A DNA stretch of 64,000 nt from Nitrosopumilus sp. GTDB lineage: Archaea; Thermoproteota; Nitrososphaeria; Nitrososphaerales; Nitrosopumilaceae. The notes beneath the pieces were generated by a model that had not been told where the DNA came from, ran no database searches, and saw only the letters and a program-made list of their open reading frames with translations. Where the stretch lies: positions 416,001 to 480,000 of the forward strand of contig CBDBGZ010000009.1 of assembly GCA_965205425.1 (NCBI GenBank), read 5' to 3'. Below are positions 6,236 to 42,744 of this stretch, piece by piece (position 1 is the first letter of the stretch; each line of letters begins with the position of its first letter). Both the position numbers and the translations under genes were made by a program.

Positions 6236-6282
6236 ATCAATCCAATTAATTGAATATTAAAAGATTGATTGTAAAATAGAAA

Positions 6283-6399
6283 ATGCCAGCACCGTTGCTT
6301 CCCAAGAGCTCTCGCATCTTAGTAACACAACAGCGACGTCAGGTTTGACTTCCAAGTTCGGAACGGGATTGGGTCGCACCCTAACGCTATGGCCGGCTT
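6283..6399 (-). rRNA. rrf: 5S rRNA
   Basis: Reverse complement GCCGGCCATAGCG...CCCAATCCCGTTCCGAACTTGGAAGTCAA...GGGAAGCAACGGTGCTGGC has 5S conserved motifs and a terminal helix; ends approximate. Confidence 0.93.
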
Positions 6400-6493
6400 G
6401 AAAATTGATGTCAAATTCTCATCTATTAACGTAACGCCAGATTTGAAACATGCTCAAAATAGGTATAAAGCAAAGAAAATACCGGTTTACAAC

Positions 6494-11288: not shown

Positions 11289-11325
11289 GTTCTAGGTTCT
11301 GAGGTTTCCGCAACCAACCTAGAAC
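11289..11325 (+). other. Hairpin (10-bp stem, 17-nt loop) whose loop is complementary to the neighbouring tRNA
   Basis: GTTCTAGGTT-ctgaggtttccgcaacc-AACCTAGAAC. Confidence 0.7.
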
Positions 11326-11357
11326 ATTTTTATTAATTTTATAGTTTTACAAGTTCT

Positions 11358-11421
11358 GCAGAGATAGCCTAGCTTGGTTATGGCGTTTACCTCAGGAGTA
11401 AATGGTTGCGGAACTACGGAG
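11358..11421 (+). pseudogene. 5' portion of tRNA-Leu(CAG); T-arm and acceptor 3' strand deleted
   Basis: GCAGAGA TA GCC-TAGCTTGGTTAT-GGC G TTTAC-CTCAGGA-GTAAA, variable arm GGTT-GCGG-AACT, then joins IS630 sequence at GGAG. Confidence 0.75.
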
Positions 11422-11717
11422 ATTGTTCTTGGCCTACCAACTTCTTGGGTGGTCGTAGAGGCCATCTATCTCAAAACGACTCACCCATTTTCTCACCCAG
11501 CTTGTGCAGTGGTGTAATGTCTTTGCAGTGCACTGTATGTCCTTTCCATCCTTTAGAATCCTCAACACTGCAAGCATCCTTACTGCAACCTTGGAGTTTT
11601 CTTTTTTGTATGCTGCTTCAAGTGATTCTAACTTGTTCATCAAATTTTACCATACATAGTGATCAAAAAGTTTTTTGTTTTGGAATAATTTAGTTCATGA
11701 ACTTTATCTTTTCGCTA
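11418..11717 (-). mobile_element. IS630-family element A, 5' fragment
   Basis: Near-identical to 24007-24306; ends in TIR ...TTTTCGCTA followed by TA. Confidence 0.9.
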
Positions 11718-17548: not shown

Positions 17549-18868
17549 CAGTAGATGGGAAAGTAACTCAATTTAGATCAAAAACTATCAATTATTCAAT
17601 CAATCTATTCAGATAGAAAAAGCTTGATGGAAGTATGTCACTCCATCAAATATGCATTGTACTTCATTTGATACCATGACACACCAAGGCGTGATACTAT
17701 CTAAAGCATTTGAGATTATCACTAAAATAATGTACAATATCTTGTTGTTTCCATGCTCTAGTAAAAATAACTCACGGTTCCATAATGCTGATGCACACAA
17801 TTCTGTCATGTCATTGTGTTTGGGAAATTCGTATGCAGAATCAGGATTAAAGAGACTGGCAATGGAATCCCAGAATCATTCTCCAACGGGTTTCATGGTT
17901 GAGAAAAATTATATCAAAAATATCACAAAAAACAATGCAAATTCAATTACATCGTTCACTGGATAGTACCATATCAAAATTACAAGAATTGGGAGTATTG
18001 GAGCAACCAGTTACTGTGGCAATTGACAAACATCTAATCCCAAGATATGACAAATTGCCAAACCATTCTTTAATAAAATCAAAATCTAAAAACAGTACTA
18101 CTCATTTTGAGAGTTACTGCACCATGCAGTGCGTTGAAAAAAGAATCAGGGCTCAACTAGGTTGTTATCCTTTGTATGACAACATATCAAATGCCGATTT
18201 TGTGCGTAAATTACTCTCTGATGGCATCAATAATGGAATCAAGATTAAACTATTGCTAGTGGATAGGGAGTTTTTCACAGCTGGAACAATTTCAGAAATA
18301 AAACAAAAGAATTTAAAATTTCTAATGCCTGCAAAAAAGAATTCTCGAATCAAAGATGCCATTTTACAATACGTTAATGGAGATAGAAAATCAATCTCGC
18401 CATACACGATAAAATCATCATCAGGACATGTAGAATCATTTACTCTAGTTATTCTGCCAAACAAAAATGCAAGAAAAAAATCAGATATTATTGATCAGTA
18501 TGTTGTGTTTGCAACAAACGTTTCACCAAAAGAAATATCATATAACATACAAAACATTCCAACTGATTACAAGAAACGTTGGGGGATTGAAACAGGCTAT
18601 GCATGTGTGGGAAGGTTCAGACCAAAAACCACCAGTTCAAACCAATCCATAAGATTGTTGTATTTTTACTATTCATTGATTTTGTACAATGCATGGATAA
18701 TTGCTAATTTGATTATCTCAGAAGAAACCAATGTAAAAAATTACAAACCAATAATATCAATTGAAATTCTCAAATATTTCTTTGTAAAGATAATTATTCA
18801 TTACTTTAGAAATAACAAAAATAATTATTTCCTAGAATGTGTAATTTGATGTACTTTCCCATCTACTG
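17549..18868 (+). mobile_element. ISH3-family element copy 1; transposase frameshifted near 17890
   Basis: 17-bp TIR CAGTAGATGGGAAAGTA; 7-bp TSD CCAAGAA; AIDKH, VDREF and YKKRWGIETGY motifs; one extra base relative to copy 2. Confidence 0.92.
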
Positions 18869-26841: not shown

Positions 26842-27447
26842 ATGGAATTTGTAAAAGAGTTTGCAACCTTTTTGCATCAAAAAGGCATCATAAAATTTGG
26901 GGACTTTACACTAGCCAGTGGAAAAAAGAGTTCGTATTATGTAGATTTAAGATTGGTTCCGAGTTATCCTCTTGAATTTAGAAAGATGATAAAATATCTT
27001 GAAAATGAAATTGGTCATGGTATTGGATTAGACAATTTTGAATCAATTGTTTCAGTTCCAACTGGGGGATTAGTAATTGCATCAGCATTAGCAATTGAAA
27101 CTGTAAAACCTCTAATCTATGTTAGAAGCAAGCCAAAAGATTATGGAACATCAAAATCAGTTGAAGGGAAAATTCATGATGGAATGAAAGTAGTTATGAT
27201 AGATGATGTTGCAACTACAGGGGGTTCAGTTGTTAATGCAATTAAATCTCTGAAGGAAGTTAACATTCCAGTAAAAGACGCATATGTCATTGTAAATAGA
27301 ATGGAAGGAGCTGACGAAGCATTATTAGAATTAGGTGTAAAAATGCATTCAATTCTAAATATCTTACAAATCACTGAAGTCTTATTTGAACAAAATCTAA
27401 TTGATGTAGATGTTTTAGAAAAAGTGAAAAAACAAATCAACAAGTAA
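26842..27447 (+). CDS. pyrE: Orotate phosphoribosyltransferase
   Basis: FTLASGKKSSYYVDLR and MIDDVATTGGS motifs. Confidence 0.95.
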   Translation: MEFVKEFATFLHQKGIIKFGDFTLASGKKSSYYVDLRLVPSYPLEFRKMIKYLENEIGHGIGLDNFESIVSVPTGGLVIASALAIETVKPLIYVRSKPKDYGTSKSVEGKIHDGMKVVMIDDVATTGGSVVNAIKSLKEVNIPVKDAYVIVNRMEGADEALLELGVKMHSILNILQITEVLFEQNLIDVDVLEKVKKQINK

Positions 27448-36997: not shown

Positions 36998-37048
36998 AAA
37001 TTACCTGCATTACCGCCTTATCAAATTTAACAAAGTCCACAAACTACA

Positions 37049-37074
37049 ACCTTAGTGCAAATTTGCACTAAGGT
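37049..37074. repeat. Perfect 26-bp palindrome
   Basis: ACCTTAGTGCAAA|TTTGCACTAAGGT. Confidence 0.85.
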
Positions 37075-37092
37075 CAGCAACTAAACCACATA

Positions 37093-37984
37093 TAGCGAAA
37101 AGATAAAGTTCGTGAACTAAATTATTCCAAAACAAAAAACTTTTTGATCACTATGTATGGTAAAATTTGATGAACAAGTTAGAATCACTTGAAGCAGCAT
37201 ACAAAAAAGAAAACTCCAAGGTTGCAGCAAGGATGCTTGCAGTGTTGATGATTCTAAAGGATGGAAAGGACATACAGTGCACTGCAAAGACATTACACCA
37301 CTGCACAAGCTGGGTGAGAAAATGGGTGAGTCGTTTTGAGATAGATGGCCTCTACGATCTCCCAAGAAGTGTAGGCCAAGAACAATCTCCCAGACCAGAA
37401 TGGATTGTATCATGTCAAAAGCAATGCTAACTTTGTTTACTCCCATAATGTTGCAACAAAGTATCTTTTATTCCACTGGAGTAAAATTTCACATAACCCA
37501 CATCAGAAAGATAATGCACCAATACGGCAAGAGAATATTTCTTCCATATACAGGACGACATGAGAGTCTGGTAGTGTATGGTACAATTACAGAAAATGGT
37601 AATCAACTATTCAGAGTTTATAACAAATTCAATGCTGTAACATTTGTAGAATATCTAAAAGAGTTACACTGGAAATACGGCAAAATTGCAATCATTTTAG
37701 ATAGAGCATCAGTTCACAAATCAAAGAAGGTAAAGGAATACCTTGCAAACAATAGAGATGTCAAACTAATCTGGTTGCCAAAGGGATCACCATACTTGAA
37801 CATGATAGAGCAGTGCTGGAAGATAAGCAAATATGCATTGTTGGTTTCAGAGTATTATGCAATGTTTGCAATAATGAACAAGGCAGTGTCCGAATATTTC
37901 AGAGTGACAAAATTCAAGCTTGATGTTGCAAATTATATCTTTAGAAATCCTGCAAAGATGTTTGCGAACTTTTGATCGTCGCTA
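37093..37984 (+). mobile_element. IS630-family element A copy 3 (frameshifted, internal deletion of about 190 bp)
   Basis: Same TIRs and TA duplication as 23224-24306; QYG joined directly to KRIF. Confidence 0.9.
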
Positions 37985-37989
37985 TACAA

Positions 37990-38048
37990 GACGTTATGAC
38001 CATCAGTCTGGAACGCCCGAAGGGTGTTACGACTGAGGAAGGAACGTC
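37990..38048. ncRNA. Putative structured RNA/DNA hairpin with three nested stems
   Basis: GACGTT/AACGTC, TCAGTC/GACTGA and AACGCCC/GGGTGTT; GC-rich in an AT-rich context; strand uncertain. Confidence 0.5.
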
Positions 38049-38069
38049 ACAAAATCCATAATAACAATG

Positions 38070-38140
38070 TGGACCCGTTGGGAGTTGAACCCAAATCTCC
38101 TAGTTCTTACTTAGGTGCGTGACCGTCACGCTACGAGCCC
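38070..38140 (-). tRNA. Atypical tRNA-like gene (Ala-type acceptor, AAG anticodon)
   Basis: GGGCTCG TA GCGT-GACGGTC-ACGC A CCTAA-GTAAGAA-CTAGG AGAT TTGGG-TTCAACT-CCCAA CGGGTCC A; 71-nt cloverleaf. Confidence 0.75.
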
Positions 38141-38175
38141 ACAAAGTATATTAGAAAATACTAAACTAATAATGT

Positions 38176-38191
38176 TAGTTCTTACTTAGGT
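38176..38191. repeat. Exact 16-bp copy of the tRNA-like anticodon arm
   Basis: TAGTTCTTACTTAGGT at 38101-38116 and 38176-38191. Confidence 0.85.
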
Positions 38192-38284
38192 TAGGCCAGC
38201 GCGCTAATCTCTTTTTTCTATTTTCAAAATATGGTACGTGTTTAGGTCCAGACTCACACATATTTTACAGTAGATGGGAAAGTA

Positions 38285-39430
38285 TAGTTAAGGCATTAAA
38301 TATTTGAATAATTTCACAACTCGAACGTCTCCATTATCTAGTCTCTTCTGCATGTGTTTTCTCATCTCAGTTCCATTTGCAAAGAATGTATTGGCATTAC
38401 CATTTTTCTCTTCTCTCCACTGTACCTCAATTGGATTGAGTTCTGGGGTGTATGCAGGAAAATATCTTATGATTACATTTCTTTTTGATACCTTGAGAAA
38501 TTCTTTTACTCTGACACTTTTGTGGTATGATGCATTGTCTGCAAATAATAACAGTTTCTTACCAAATTGTTTCTGCAGTGATTCTAAAAAATCAAGAAAT
38601 GAGTCTGTGTTTGATTTATCATAAAATCTGCAAAAAAATACGCCGTCATCCCCCAATGCACCAAATGATTGAAATTTTTCTCGAGTGTAATTAATTGGTG
38701 TGGTAATGTTATTGCCTGCAAGATACCATCCGCGCTTTATGTTAGGTGCTATCTTGTTTGTTGACTCATCCAGACATAGTGTGGTGTATCCCAATTTGGA
38801 ATATTTTTTGATACTCCTTTTTGCGTTTTTTTAAAACGGGTTTGTTCCTCTTTTGAGGCTGATTTGTGATGTGTGGGACGTGGTTTTTTTGATGAGAATC
38901 CAATTCTGTGCAGCAATTCACGCATTCCTCTTGCAGAGTATAGGGTGTTGTATTTTTTATTCACATGTGTAATTACCATTCTTGTACTCCACATGAATTG
39001 GTTAAATCCAAACTTTTCTGGACCTGAAATTAGATCATTTCTTAATGATACTAGCTGTTTTTCATTTAGAAAACATCTAGAACCAGAATATTTCTTGCGG
39101 TGTGATGCAGATATTCCCTCTTCATCCATTCGATTTAGCCAGTAGGACAGAGTTGATGGTATGACATCCAGACTTGCACATATCACAGAATACGGAATAT
39201 TTTGTTTTCTTAGTATTGCAGCCTTTAATCTTATCTTTGCTTTTGCATTTTTTTCATTCTTGCATACTTTTCTTAAAAAATTAATGCTTGTACCTTTCAT
39301 GAATTGATTTCCAGAGGAAACCTTGGATTGTCTTGTACTCTTTGACATGGTTTCATGAATTGATTCTACGATCTAGATCTTTTGGGTTAAAATACTTGAC
39401 AGTTTATTCAGAATTTATATGCCTAAATTA
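38285..39430 (-). mobile_element. IS630-family element B (orfA 38749-39348, orfB 38288-38794, probable programmed frameshift)
   Basis: TA duplication; imperfect TIRs; LDES, ADNASYH and PAYTPELNPIE motifs; slippery TTTAAAAAAA at the overlap. Confidence 0.88.
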
Positions 39431-41837: not shown

Positions 41838-41911
41838 TGGGCCCGAAGGGCTTCGATCCCTTGGCTCACCGGTTATGAGCCGGTTACTCTACCAAGCTGA
41901 GTTACGGGCCC
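41838..41911 (-). tRNA. tRNA(CAT), probably Ile2
   Basis: GGGCCCG acceptor, ACCGG-CTCATAA-CCGGT anticodon arm; lacks initiator features; T-loop reads ATCGAAG. Confidence 0.88.
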
Positions 41912-42665: not shown

Positions 42666-42744
42666 GTTCCAGTGGTGTAGACCGGTCAAGCATTTTGCCC
42701 TTTCAAGGCAAAGATCCCGGGTTCAAATCCCGGCTGGAGCACCA
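42666..42744 (+). tRNA. tRNA-Glu(TTC)
   Basis: GTTCCAG/CTGGAGC acceptor, TTGCC-CTTTCAA-GGCAA, GGTTCAAATCC and encoded ACCA. Confidence 0.93.

What the first reader, a model, noticed from the sequence alone, without database searches (positions are those of the whole stretch)
38070..38250. tRNA-like gene with Ala identity, non-Ala anticodon and a duplicated anticodon arm
Seen: a full cloverleaf with G1-C72, G2-C71, G3:U70 and A73, a short D-loop, an A-C mismatch closing the anticodon stem and loop GTAAGAA (AAG). The 16-mer covering that arm recurs exactly about 35 nt upstream of the gene, and TTAGGT recurs at 38242. Known: G3:U70 is the AlaRS determinant, AlaRS ignores the anticodon, and A34 tRNAs are essentially absent from archaea. 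Inference: either a mistranslating or decoy tRNA, or a tRNA scaffold presenting an antisense arm to a divergent + strand transcript. This is the second tRNA in the window with a nearby match to its anticodon arm (see 11289-11421), suggesting a shared tRNA-scaffold guide or antisense system in these elements.
Basis: partly seen in the sequence, partly recalled or inferred. Interest (0 to 1): 0.82.

Follow-up and report, generated by a model that had tools for sequence, protein, structure and literature searches.

The report
tRNA-like gene with co-evolving anticodon-arm copy
A small alanine-type tRNA look-alike in an ammonia-oxidising archaeon belongs to a mobile family in which a second copy of its codon-reading loop, just upstream, always changes in step with it, which suggests an undescribed two-RNA control or addiction module.

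Summary
Window 38140..38070 (minus strand) is a cloverleaf tRNA-like gene (Rfam 47.1 bits) with G3:U70 and A73, anticodon AAG, an A-C mismatch closing the anticodon stem, and an exact 16-nt copy of its arm 75 nt upstream.

It is neither a one-off duplication nor a decayed gene. About 30 related loci occur in 14 of 151 genomes of the genus (Nitrosopumilus) and in one other genus, in transposase-rich and conjugation-gene islands.

- In 14 complete modules the 9-nt loop of the upstream copy (R1) matches the gene's own loop (R2) at 121 of 126 positions, across 11 distinct loops. Mismatched pairings average 5.4 of 9.
- The cloverleaf is kept by compensatory changes, and G3:U70 is invariant (15 of 15).
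- Anticodons are GAA, AAG or GAG, never Ala.

Best reading (about 0.4, untested): R1 is read from the opposite strand as a roughly 45-nt antisense RNA (seed, hairpin, T-run) that pairs with the anticodon arm. This would be an RNA-RNA regulator or toxin-antitoxin-like pair.

Main rival (about 0.3): DNA-level repeat homogenisation or recombination. No RNA data exist. The proposed link to 11289-11421 is not supported.

The parts
38070..38140 (-). tRNA-like gene (71 nt up to discriminator A73, no encoded CCA). Ala-type acceptor stem with G3:U70, short D region, anticodon AAG.
   Evidence: ARAGORN; Rfam 47.1 bits; cloverleaf covariation in the family
38099..38115 (-). R2: the anticodon arm, a 4-bp stem (CCUA/UAGG) with a 9-nt loop AGUAAGAAC (A-C mismatch at 31:39).
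   Evidence: 31:39 is unpaired in 12 of 15 family members
38176..38191 (-). R1: exact same-sense 16-nt copy of the arm, ending 35 nt before the gene. On the + strand it is the complement of the arm.
   Evidence: co-variation with R2 in 14 modules
38141..38175 (.). X: AT-rich spacer with two conserved boxes, CATTATTA at -34..-27 and TAATATA/TTTAATAAA at about -19..-9. Candidate overlapping promoters for the tRNA-like gene (minus strand) and for a + strand RNA.
   Evidence: alignments; promoter matrix scan (weak to moderate scores on both strands)
38192..38222 (-). U: A-run plus short hairpin upstream of R1, possibly a decayed copy of the D-arm region. On the + strand it reads as hairpin 38188-38210 followed by T-run 38212-38217.
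   Evidence: similarity of U to the 5' half is not significant by alignment score
38174..38219 (+). Predicted, not shown: an antisense RNA of about 45 nt, made of a seed complementary to the arm, a hairpin and a U-tract.
   Evidence: inference; no RNA data

Best explanation
The gene is an intact member of an accessory RNA module of about 150-165 nt carried on mobile islands of Nitrosopumilaceae. The module has two parts. The first is a structured tRNA-like RNA with a full alanine identity set (G1-C72, G2-C71, G3:U70, A73). It has a deviant anticodon arm (4-bp stem, 9-nt loop, A37) whose triplet is GAA, AAG or GAG, which read Phe or Leu codons. The second part, immediately upstream, is a partial duplicate (U-R1) whose arm segment is kept identical to the gene's own arm while the arm sequence itself diversifies between modules.

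I infer that R1 is transcribed from the opposite strand as an RNA of about 40-45 nt: a 5' seed complementary to the anticodon stem-loop, then a hairpin, then a U-tract. This RNA would pair with the tRNA-like RNA (about 14-17 bp) and block or regulate it. The pair would then work like an RNA-RNA antisense control or toxin-antitoxin/incompatibility module, with loop diversification giving private, orthogonal pairs.

Shown: the anatomy, the family, the co-variation, the cloverleaf selection and the island context. Inferred: both transcripts, charging by AlaRS, any decoding or toxicity, and the pairing in vivo.
For: (1) R1 tracks R2. In 14 complete modules, 121 of 126 loop positions are identical within a module, against a mean of 5.41 of 9 for mismatched pairings. 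There are 11 distinct R2 loops, and 0 of 100,000 permutations reach the observed sum. The relation holds in a second genus where the stem is entirely different (ATTG/CAAT).

(2) The rest of the duplicate has diverged. U against the 5' half scores 2.64, against 2.50 for shuffled U. The identity is therefore confined to the arm, as expected for a constrained segment.

(3) On the opposite strand the complement of R1 is followed by a hairpin and a T-run in all three diverged U types (main type, G086 type, G187 type), with different stem sequences. By my count from the sequences, a T-run of 4 or more is present in 13 of 14 modules.

(4) A BRE/TATA matrix built from 44 bona fide tRNA promoters of this genome finds a reverse-strand site at -14..-3 as one of the two best reverse-strand hits in 9 of 14 modules: 1.9 bits in 2, 3.2 bits in 4, and 6.3-7.9 bits in 3. 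The median for real promoters is 6.4. This site would place the start at or just inside the complement of R1.

(5) Cognate seed:tRNA-like duplexes average -22.4 kcal/mol against -11.7 for non-cognate pairs. Opening the arm costs 3-4.6 kcal/mol. The three pairs resident in this genome are orthogonal (-22 to -26 against -8 to -15).

(6) The tRNA-like RNA is under structural selection. 94% of cells are paired, 12 of 20 pairs show double changes, 0 of 500 shuffles match this, and G3:U70 is present in 15 of 15.

(7) There are 11 loci that keep U-R1-X but have lost the tRNA body, against 1 tRNA-like gene without U-R1-X. This is the asymmetry expected if the upstream part has a function of its own, such as an orphan antidote.

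(8) Each R sequence has no third copy in the genome, so the partner of R1 is R2.
Against: There is no expression evidence for either strand, because no RNA run was listed.

The hairpins are thermodynamically unremarkable. Z-scores run from -0.35 to -2.0, and one module (G169b) does not fold this way at all, with z +1.27. RNAalifold found no consensus pairs on the alignment.

Promoter-matrix scores are modest on both strands. In P1 itself the best reverse-strand site (-26..-15, 4.4 bits) would start transcription beyond R1.

Of the 5 loop mismatches between R1 and R2, only 3 would be G:U-tolerated in an antisense duplex.

Short direct repeats 75 nt apart could be homogenised by conversion or template switching without any RNA function. 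Collapsed (L005) and expanded (L013) forms show that the repeats do recombine or slip.

U33 is C in 3 of the 14 complete modules (G015, G169a, G169b) and position 37 is A, so normal decoding is not assured.
Confidence: 0.4

Rival explanations
1. DNA-level explanation only. The module is a partial tandem duplication (unit = promoter + 5' half + arm), or a recombination (att-like) core. Its two short repeats are kept alike by gene conversion, template switching or recombinase requirements. R1 makes no functional RNA.
For: Thaumarchaeal att sites are short (median 17 bp), and 39 of 68 integrated elements sit in tRNA genes (PMC6563490, passages read). Copy-number variants exist at the repeats: collapsed U-R-3' half in L005 and an extra unit in L013. 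In 11 of 11 main-type modules the G/A at one U position tracks the G/A in the D stem (sequences), which suggests concerted evolution beyond R. The modules lie in islands with transposases, a TraG/VirD4-like gene, ParB and DndB.
Against: The repeats are 75 bp apart with no element between them. No tyrosine recombinase lies near the module: the nearest PF00589 hits on contig C9 start at 27422 and 598523, while the module is at 454069-454225. None is in the neighbourhoods scanned, apart from a weak 22-bit hit about 6.4 kb from P2/P3. No third copy of any R exists in the genome to serve as a target. No neighbouring protein family is shared by the loci apart from transposases and a TraG-like gene shared by two loci of one genome. 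The identity is sharply confined to the arm while U has diverged to background, and it persists across genera with fully different stems. Neutral homogenisation does not easily explain this. Breakpoints of truncated copies are scattered (nt 9-28 of the gene), not at one crossover site.
Confidence: 0.3
2. Promoter-coupled self-recognition. R1 overlaps the BRE/upstream promoter of the tRNA-like gene (-50..-35) and serves as an operator. It would be recognised either by the tRNA-like RNA itself (RNA:DNA pairing with the template strand) or by a protein that also binds the arm, giving autoregulation.
For: The best forward-strand promoter-matrix hits place the BRE-like part inside R1, at -43/-42. 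The closest precedent for RNA-guided repression of an RNA toxin's promoter is CreA/CreT (PMC8501985, abstract seen).
Against: Forward scores are low (2.6-5.5 bits against a median of 6.4). No Cas-like or other conserved protein partner is found beside the modules. The reading does not explain the conserved hairpin plus T-run on the opposite strand.
Confidence: 0.1
3. Same-strand reading. U-R1 is transcribed with or ahead of the tRNA-like RNA as a same-sense mimic of the anticodon arm. It would act as a decoy or competitor for an anticodon nuclease or modification enzyme, or as a leader element.
For: Upstream genes are often co-directional with the module, so read-through is possible. The loops resemble the host tRNA-Phe loop (CUGAAGA against CUGAAAA).
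Against: In most modules R1 has lost the 3' stem strand (CTAAC instead of CTAGG), so it cannot form the arm hairpin. The conserved run next to U is an A-run on this strand, not a terminator.
Confidence: 0.1
4. Decayed tRNA-Ala pseudogene with a chance or one-off local duplication.
For: The gene lies between insertion sequences. It has a mismatch in the anticodon stem and an anticodon unusual for archaea.
Against: The family is conserved, with compensatory changes in all four helices and G3:U70 invariant. The 31:39 non-pair is itself conserved (12 of 15). The repeat co-varies in 14 modules. No homologue has an Ala anticodon.
Confidence: 0.02

Closest known systems
Natural and engineered mistranslating tRNAs: tRNA-Ala anticodon variants (Cozma et al. 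2023, PMC10543346, abstract read) and the bacterial tRNA-ProX family (PMC10404621, search listing only)
   Same: Alanine identity (G3:U70) is combined with a non-alanine anticodon. AlaRS ignores the anticodon, so such tRNAs can insert Ala at other codons. In yeast, 36 of 60 variants reduced growth.
   Different: Here the anticodon arm is structurally deviant (4-bp stem, 9-nt loop, A37, C33 in some). The genes are accessory and island-borne in an archaeon. Each carries a co-evolving upstream copy of its arm. Charging and decoding are untested.
RNA toxin / RNA antitoxin modules such as CreT/CreA (PMC8501985, abstract read); the label 'type VIII' is recalled
   Same: This is a compact two-RNA module in which one RNA would harm translation and the other would silence it through a short guide-like match. 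These modules occur in archaea and are linked to selfish or defence elements.
   Different: CreA acts through Cascade on the creT promoter, and CreT sequesters a tRNA. Here no Cas partner is present, the putative toxin is itself a tRNA look-alike, and the putative antidote would pair with the RNA. Neither toxicity nor the antidote transcript has been shown.
Antisense-RNA copy-control and incompatibility systems of plasmids (ColE1 RNA I/RNA II, R1 CopA/CopT; recalled, not searched)
   Same: Recognition is through loop sequences (kissing). Loop sequence defines specificity groups, and loops diversify between related elements.
   Different: In those systems the antisense and target RNAs are made from the same DNA, so one mutation changes both. 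Here the two sequences are separate copies 75 nt apart that must change in step.
Integrative-element attachment sites in tRNA genes (Krupovic et al. 2019, PMC6563490, passages read)
   Same: A short direct repeat (16 bp, against a thaumarchaeal median of 17 bp) covers part of a tRNA gene, within a mobile-island context.
   Different: No element lies between the repeats, no integrase is nearby, and the copy is on the 5' side. The pair is conserved and co-varying across genera rather than being a scar of one event.
   Same: An alanine-type tRNA whose 'anticodon' matches a sequence in its own upstream region instead of serving a fixed codon.
   Different: Different domain of life and different sequence. 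That note describes pairing with its own leader, whereas here the upstream copy is same-sense, so pairing needs the opposite strand. I did not examine that locus.

Membership tests
tRNA (Rfam RF00005) | Score at or above the gathering threshold, with a cloverleaf | tested here: met
   47.1 bits against 29. On 15 family members, 94% of pair cells are paired and 12 of 20 pairs have double changes.
tRNA-Ala | G3:U70 with A73, the AlaRS identity set (established knowledge; restated in the PMC10543346 abstract) | tested here: met
   G3:U70 in 15 of 15. A73 in 14 of 15 (G163 has G).
tRNA-Ala | Alanine anticodon (NGC) | tested here: not met
   AAG here. GAA, AAG or GAG in all 15 aligned members.
tRNA-Ala | Aminoacylation with alanine | not testable with these tools
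   Needs an AlaRS assay or charged-tRNA sequencing.
tRNA-Leu (ARAGORN's label) | Long variable arm of class II tRNAs (established knowledge) | tested here: not met
   The variable region is 4-5 nt. The genome's real Leu tRNAs are 86-102 nt.
Canonical elongator tRNA anticodon arm | 5-bp stem, 7-nt loop, U33 | tested here: not met
   31:39 is unpaired in 12 of 15. Position 33 is C in 3 of the 14 complete modules (G015, G169a, G169b).
tRNA-gene att site of an integrated element | Direct repeats flanking an element that encodes an integrase | tested here: not met
   The repeats are 75 nt apart. No PF00589 hit lies within about 144 kb on the contig. No third copy of R exists.
RNA-RNA toxin-antitoxin module | Two adjacent transcripts, one toxic and one neutralising | not testable with these tools
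   No RNA runs. Only in-silico features are available.
T-box-like tRNA-sensing leader | Specifier and terminator/antiterminator upstream of a regulated gene on the same transcript | tested here: inconclusive
   The + strand has the arm complement overlapping a hairpin plus T-run. There is no consistent gene behind it: orientations of neighbours are mixed. No Rfam T-box hit.

The most novel reading that the evidence does not exclude
An RNA-only addiction or incompatibility module of archaeal mobile islands. The toxin is a stable alanine-charged tRNA look-alike that reads Phe/Leu codons. It is held in check by a short-lived private antisense RNA templated by a partial duplicate of the gene. Loop sequences diversify so that each module is an orthogonal toxin/antidote pair, and orphan antidote copies persist as immunity.
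Probability: 0.22. Interest if true: 0.92.

Novelty: new variant of a known kind. Interest (0 to 1): 0.78.

Why it matters
Natural tRNAs that carry one amino-acid identity and another amino acid's anticodon are rare and mostly regarded as accidents. Here a whole family is maintained by selection in archaea, on mobile DNA. It has a built-in, co-evolving second copy of the codon-reading arm.

If the second copy encodes an antisense RNA, this would be the first dedicated RNA regulator of a tRNA-like RNA through its anticodon arm. It could also be a toxin-antitoxin pair made only of RNA, with mistranslation as the weapon. Even if the mechanism is DNA-level, a 16-nt island of concerted evolution kept across genera is an unusual and testable case.

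The module is small, about 165 nt. It can be tested by Northern blot or small-RNA sequencing, by charging assays, and by expressing the gene with and without the upstream part.

Tried and rejected
- **RNA evidence.** The look-up of sequencing runs listed no RNA holder. Read laying on four DNA contig runs showed only the paralogue's variants and one single-contig joint, 38109->38192. Neither says anything about expression.
- **Other collections.** Two patterns gave 0 loci in viral contigs. There were no blastn matches in phages or plasmids. The metagenome pattern scan gave 29 loci, none of them a module.
- **Order-wide pattern search.** In 401 genomes the only hits were 6 known module loci plus 1 chance hit that has no tRNA.
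- **Consensus folding.** RNAalifold on the 14 opposite-strand sequences gave no consensus pairs, because the U types do not align.
- **U as a copy of the 5' half.** The alignment scores are not above shuffled controls.
- **Conserved protein partner or integrase.** None was found.
- **Trans target of the loop in the genome.** None within 2 mismatches.
- **TTAGGT at 38242 as part of the system.** Rejected: it belongs to another 39-nt repeat.
- **Split or permuted tRNA, or intron (bulge-helix-bulge), readings.** Rejected on reasoning. The gene is complete and colinear, and direct repeats cannot form the required helix.
- **Literature.** Searches on Nitrosopumilus + tRNA-like, G3 U70 / non-alanine anticodon / archaea, and antisense RNA + anticodon loop + tRNA-like + toxin-antitoxin + mobile element found no description of such a module.

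Full report
**1. The observation**

The feature lies on the minus strand. ARAGORN calls a 72-nt 'tRNA-Leu(aag)' at 38069-38140. Rfam's tRNA model matches 38070-38140 end to end at 47.1 bits, against a gathering score of 29.

Read 5'->3', the RNA has these features:
- The acceptor stem is GGGCUCG/CGGGUCC, giving G1-C72, G2-C71 and G3:U70, with A73.
- The D region is short (GCGU-GACGGUC-ACGC).
- The anticodon arm is CCUAA-GUAAGAA-CUAGG, and its closing pair is an A-C mismatch.
- The variable region has 4-5 nt, and the T arm is normal.

It is not a leucine tRNA. The genome's real Leu tRNAs are 86-102 nt with long variable arms.

The 16-mer ACCTAAGTAAGAACTA occurs at 38101-38116 (in the arm) and again at 38176-38191, ending 35 nt before the gene. 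With up to two mismatches there are two matches in the window against 0.02 expected, and 0 of 100 shuffles reach two.

The TTAGGT at 38242 is real, but it sits in a 39-nt repeat (38231-38269) with two other copies in the genome. Next to it is an insertion sequence of about 1.14 kb that has about 40 copies and whose end is at about 38283. It is not part of the feature.

**2. It is one of a family, and the repeat co-varies**

The window comes from a 2.2-Mb, 33% G+C genome in 9 contigs.

The genome holds two further copies in tandem on contig C4. Their arms are CCTACCTAAGAACTAGG and CCTACGTGAAACCTAGG, and each has its own matching copy upstream.

The conserved unit has this order:
- U, an A-run followed by GAGATTAGCGCG.TGGCCTAA.
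- R1, the copy of the arm.
- X, a 34-nt AT-rich spacer with two conserved boxes.
- The tRNA-like gene, which contains R2.

Between copies, differences are concentrated in the loop, and they are the same in R1 and R2.

As a control, I checked 59 ARAGORN predictions of this genome. The longest exact match between the anticodon region and the 130 nt upstream is 8 nt or less, except in the three modules, where it is 16. Each R sequence occurs nowhere else in the genome within two mismatches.

**3. Distribution**

- A BLAST search of 151 genomes of the genus found matches in 14 (11 of the 98 high-quality genomes), often several per genome.
- A sample of 401 genomes of the family (27 genera) added only weak hits. 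One of them led to a true module in another genus, in a 4.3-Mb genome (G187) that has two copies.
- A pattern for the X/gene junction gave 23 loci in the species-representative genome collection. Seven were modules and 16 were unrelated bacterial DNA.
- The same pattern gave no module among 29 metagenome loci and nothing in viral contigs.
- A second pattern, run over 401 genomes of the order (20 families), hit six module loci and one chance site without a tRNA. The reversed-pattern control hit nothing.
- There were no phage or plasmid matches.

Carrier genomes are mostly the larger ones of the genus, 1.7-2.6 Mb.

Neighbouring genes are transposases (IS630-type DDE_3/HTH, DDE_Tnp_1, IS110), a TraG/VirD4-like ATPase (twice in G153), ParB, DndB and a restriction-modification methylase. 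No protein family is shared by all loci.

The copy in the window and its closest relative (G153, 93-94% identity) share about 140 nt of downstream flank. In the window, an IS630-type insertion (37093-37985) splits that flank. The module is therefore accessory cargo of mobile islands.

**4. Quantifying the co-variation**

I classified about 30 related loci:
- 14 are complete modules.
- One is complete but interrupted by an internal duplication (L023). I left it out of the counts, although its loops also agree 9 of 9.
- Two are degenerate (L017, L018).
- 11 keep U-R1-X but have lost the tRNA body after nt 0-28.
- One tRNA-like gene lacks U-R1-X (L004).
- One is 'collapsed': U, a single arm and the 3' half (L005).

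In the 14 complete modules, the nine loop positions (31-39) agree between R1 and R2 at 121 of 126 positions. R1 of one module against R2 of another agrees at 5.41 of 9 on average. There are 11 distinct R2 loops. None of 100,000 re-pairings reaches the observed sum.

The relation survives complete replacement of the stem. G187a has ATTGTTTGAAAATCAA in both places (16 of 16), and G187b agrees at 14 of 17. In one module (L099) the stems differ but the loop is identical.

By contrast, the segment upstream of R1 is no more similar to the gene's 5' half than shuffled sequence is: score 2.64 against 2.50 +/- 1.36. By eye, though, the G187 and G086 versions look like decayed 5' halves. In 11 of 11 main-type modules, one G/A position of U tracks the G/A of the D stem (sequences).

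The identity is thus an island confined to the arm.

**5. The tRNA-like RNA is under selection**

I aligned 15 members against the cloverleaf:
- 94% of pair cells are standard pairs, against 81% in column shuffles and 35-45% for slid partners.
- 12 of 20 pairs show changes on both sides.
- 0 of 500 shuffles reach the covariation score.
- G1-C72, G2-C71 and G3:U70 are invariant.
- A73 is present in 14 of 15.
- The 31:39 position is unpaired in 12 of 15, so a 4-bp stem with a 9-nt loop is a family trait and not damage.

Anticodon triplets are GAA, AAG or GAG, and never an alanine anticodon. Position 37 is A. Position 33 is U, or C in 3 of the 14 complete modules (G015, G169a, G169b).

In this genome's ARAGORN list, A34 otherwise appears only in two dubious predictions.

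Whether the RNA is charged or decodes cannot be told from sequence. AlaRS recognition of G3:U70, independent of the anticodon, is established knowledge (abstract of PMC10543346).

**6. What the upstream copy could be**

Read on the opposite strand, every complete module gives the same layout: the complement of the arm, then a hairpin, then a T-rich run. The hairpin stem sequences differ between the three U types (GGUUAG/CUAAUC, AGGCUA/UAGCCU, AGGCU/AGCCU). By my count, the T-run has 4 or more Ts in 13 of 14 and 5 or more in 11 of 14.

Single-sequence folding puts the hairpin next to the U-run in 6 of 8 cases. The energies are ordinary, however, with z from -0.35 to -2.0, and one module does not fold this way. 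RNAalifold found nothing on the poorly alignable set.

I built a BRE/TATA matrix from 44 bona fide tRNA promoters of the genome. Its consensus is AAAAATTTAATC, it starts near -37, and the median score is 6.4 bits. On the gene strand it finds only weak sites, 2.6-5.5 bits, with the BRE-like part inside R1. On the reverse strand it finds a site at -14..-3 as one of the two best hits in 9 of 14 modules: 1.9 bits in 2, 3.2 bits in 4, and 6.3-7.9 bits in 3. That site would start an RNA at or just inside the complement of R1. In the window's own copy the best reverse site is differently placed.

The predicted seed would form duplexes of about -22 kcal/mol with its own tRNA-like RNA, against -11.7 for non-cognate pairs. 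Opening the arm costs 3-4.6 kcal/mol. The three modules of this genome would be mutually orthogonal.

Together with the excess of U-R1-X 'orphans' (11 against 1), this makes a divergently transcribed antisense RNA the explanation that accounts for most features. No transcript has been seen, because no RNA run was available.

**7. Rivals**

*DNA-level reading.* This remains serious. Thaumarchaeal att sites are short (median 17 bp), and most integrated elements use tRNA genes (PMC6563490). The collapsed and expanded forms also show that the repeats can recombine or slip. Against it:
- No element lies between the repeats.
- No integrase lies nearby.
- No target copy exists.
- Truncation points are scattered.
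- The identity island is kept across genera.

*Promoter-operator and same-strand decoy readings.* These explain fewer features.

*Pseudogene reading.* contradict it.

**8. Comparison with known systems and novelty**

The nearest known things each share one aspect only:
- Mistranslating tRNAs with Ala identity and foreign anticodons (PMC10543346; the bacterial family in PMC10404621, listing only).
- RNA-RNA toxin-antitoxin modules such as CreTA (PMC8501985, abstract).
- Antisense loop-loop control systems of plasmids (recalled).
- tRNA att sites.

My searches found no description of a tRNA-like gene coupled to a co-evolving copy of its anticodon arm. An earlier, unchecked note of this scan (e1-3764982) reports a conceptually similar alanine-type tRNA matched to its own upstream region in CPR bacteria. 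I did not test it.

I file the finding as a new variant of known kinds (anticodon-switched Ala-type tRNA plus antisense-type partner). Its mechanism is unproven.

The proposed link to the element at 11289-11421 is not supported.

Noticed in passing
G000 contigs outside the window: C2:54916-54987(-), C9:254430-254501(+), C9:711260-711332(-), C8:191679-191753(-), C3:28093-28165(+): Further tRNA-like genes with the same GGGC...GTCCA acceptor (G3:U70, A73). Their anticodons are GTC (three copies), GAA and CGC. They lack the upstream arm copy (longest match 0-6 nt). The C2 copy has a 28-nt tandem duplication of its 5' half.
   Followed up: partly
G000 C8:120792-120883, C9:254931-255020, C9:901280-901368: Three 89-92-nt tRNA-like genes (CGTCAGG...CCTGACG) with a long variable arm and a GAA anticodon. 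This is the serine-type family noted earlier in this scan (e1-7820712). They have no upstream arm copy. Two unrelated odd tRNA families in one genome both carry the Phe anticodon.
   Followed up: partly
window 11358-11434 (+): A weak tRNA-like element: Rfam 27 bits, below the 29-bit threshold, and not called by ARAGORN. An upstream hairpin at about 11289-11326 contains only a 7-nt inverted complement (CTGAGGT) of its arm. The architecture differs from the module studied here.
   Followed up: partly
window 38283-39420 and 37093-37985: An IS630-type element (HTH plus DDE_3 ORFs) of about 1.14 kb, with about 40 copies in the genome. A second, partial copy is inserted in the conserved downstream flank of the module.
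   Followed up: yes
window 37023-37092 and 37986-38055 (minus strand): A conserved downstream flank of about 140 nt, shared at 97-99% with the G153 copies. It includes a perfect 10-bp hairpin (CCTTAGTGCA-AATT-TGCACTAAGG). This may be a further part of the mobile unit or another small RNA.
   Followed up: no
window 38109 -> 38192: One DNA contig of run X1 joins these two places, skipping 82 nt between R2 and the end of R1. This is 7 nt more than a clean R1/R2 deletion. The support is a single contig with a 26-nt side, and the joint is unexplained.
   Followed up: no
L005 (G014:C2:~18189-18274) and L013 (G161:C1:~1073575): Length variants of the module at the repeats. L005 is a collapsed form (U, one arm, 3' half, with no promoter or 5' half). 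L013 is an expanded form with two promoter + 5' half + arm units.
   Followed up: partly
window 6281-6400(-), 41838-41911(-), 42666-42744(+): Ordinary 5S rRNA, tRNA-Met(CAT) and tRNA-Glu(TTC) genes.
   Followed up: no
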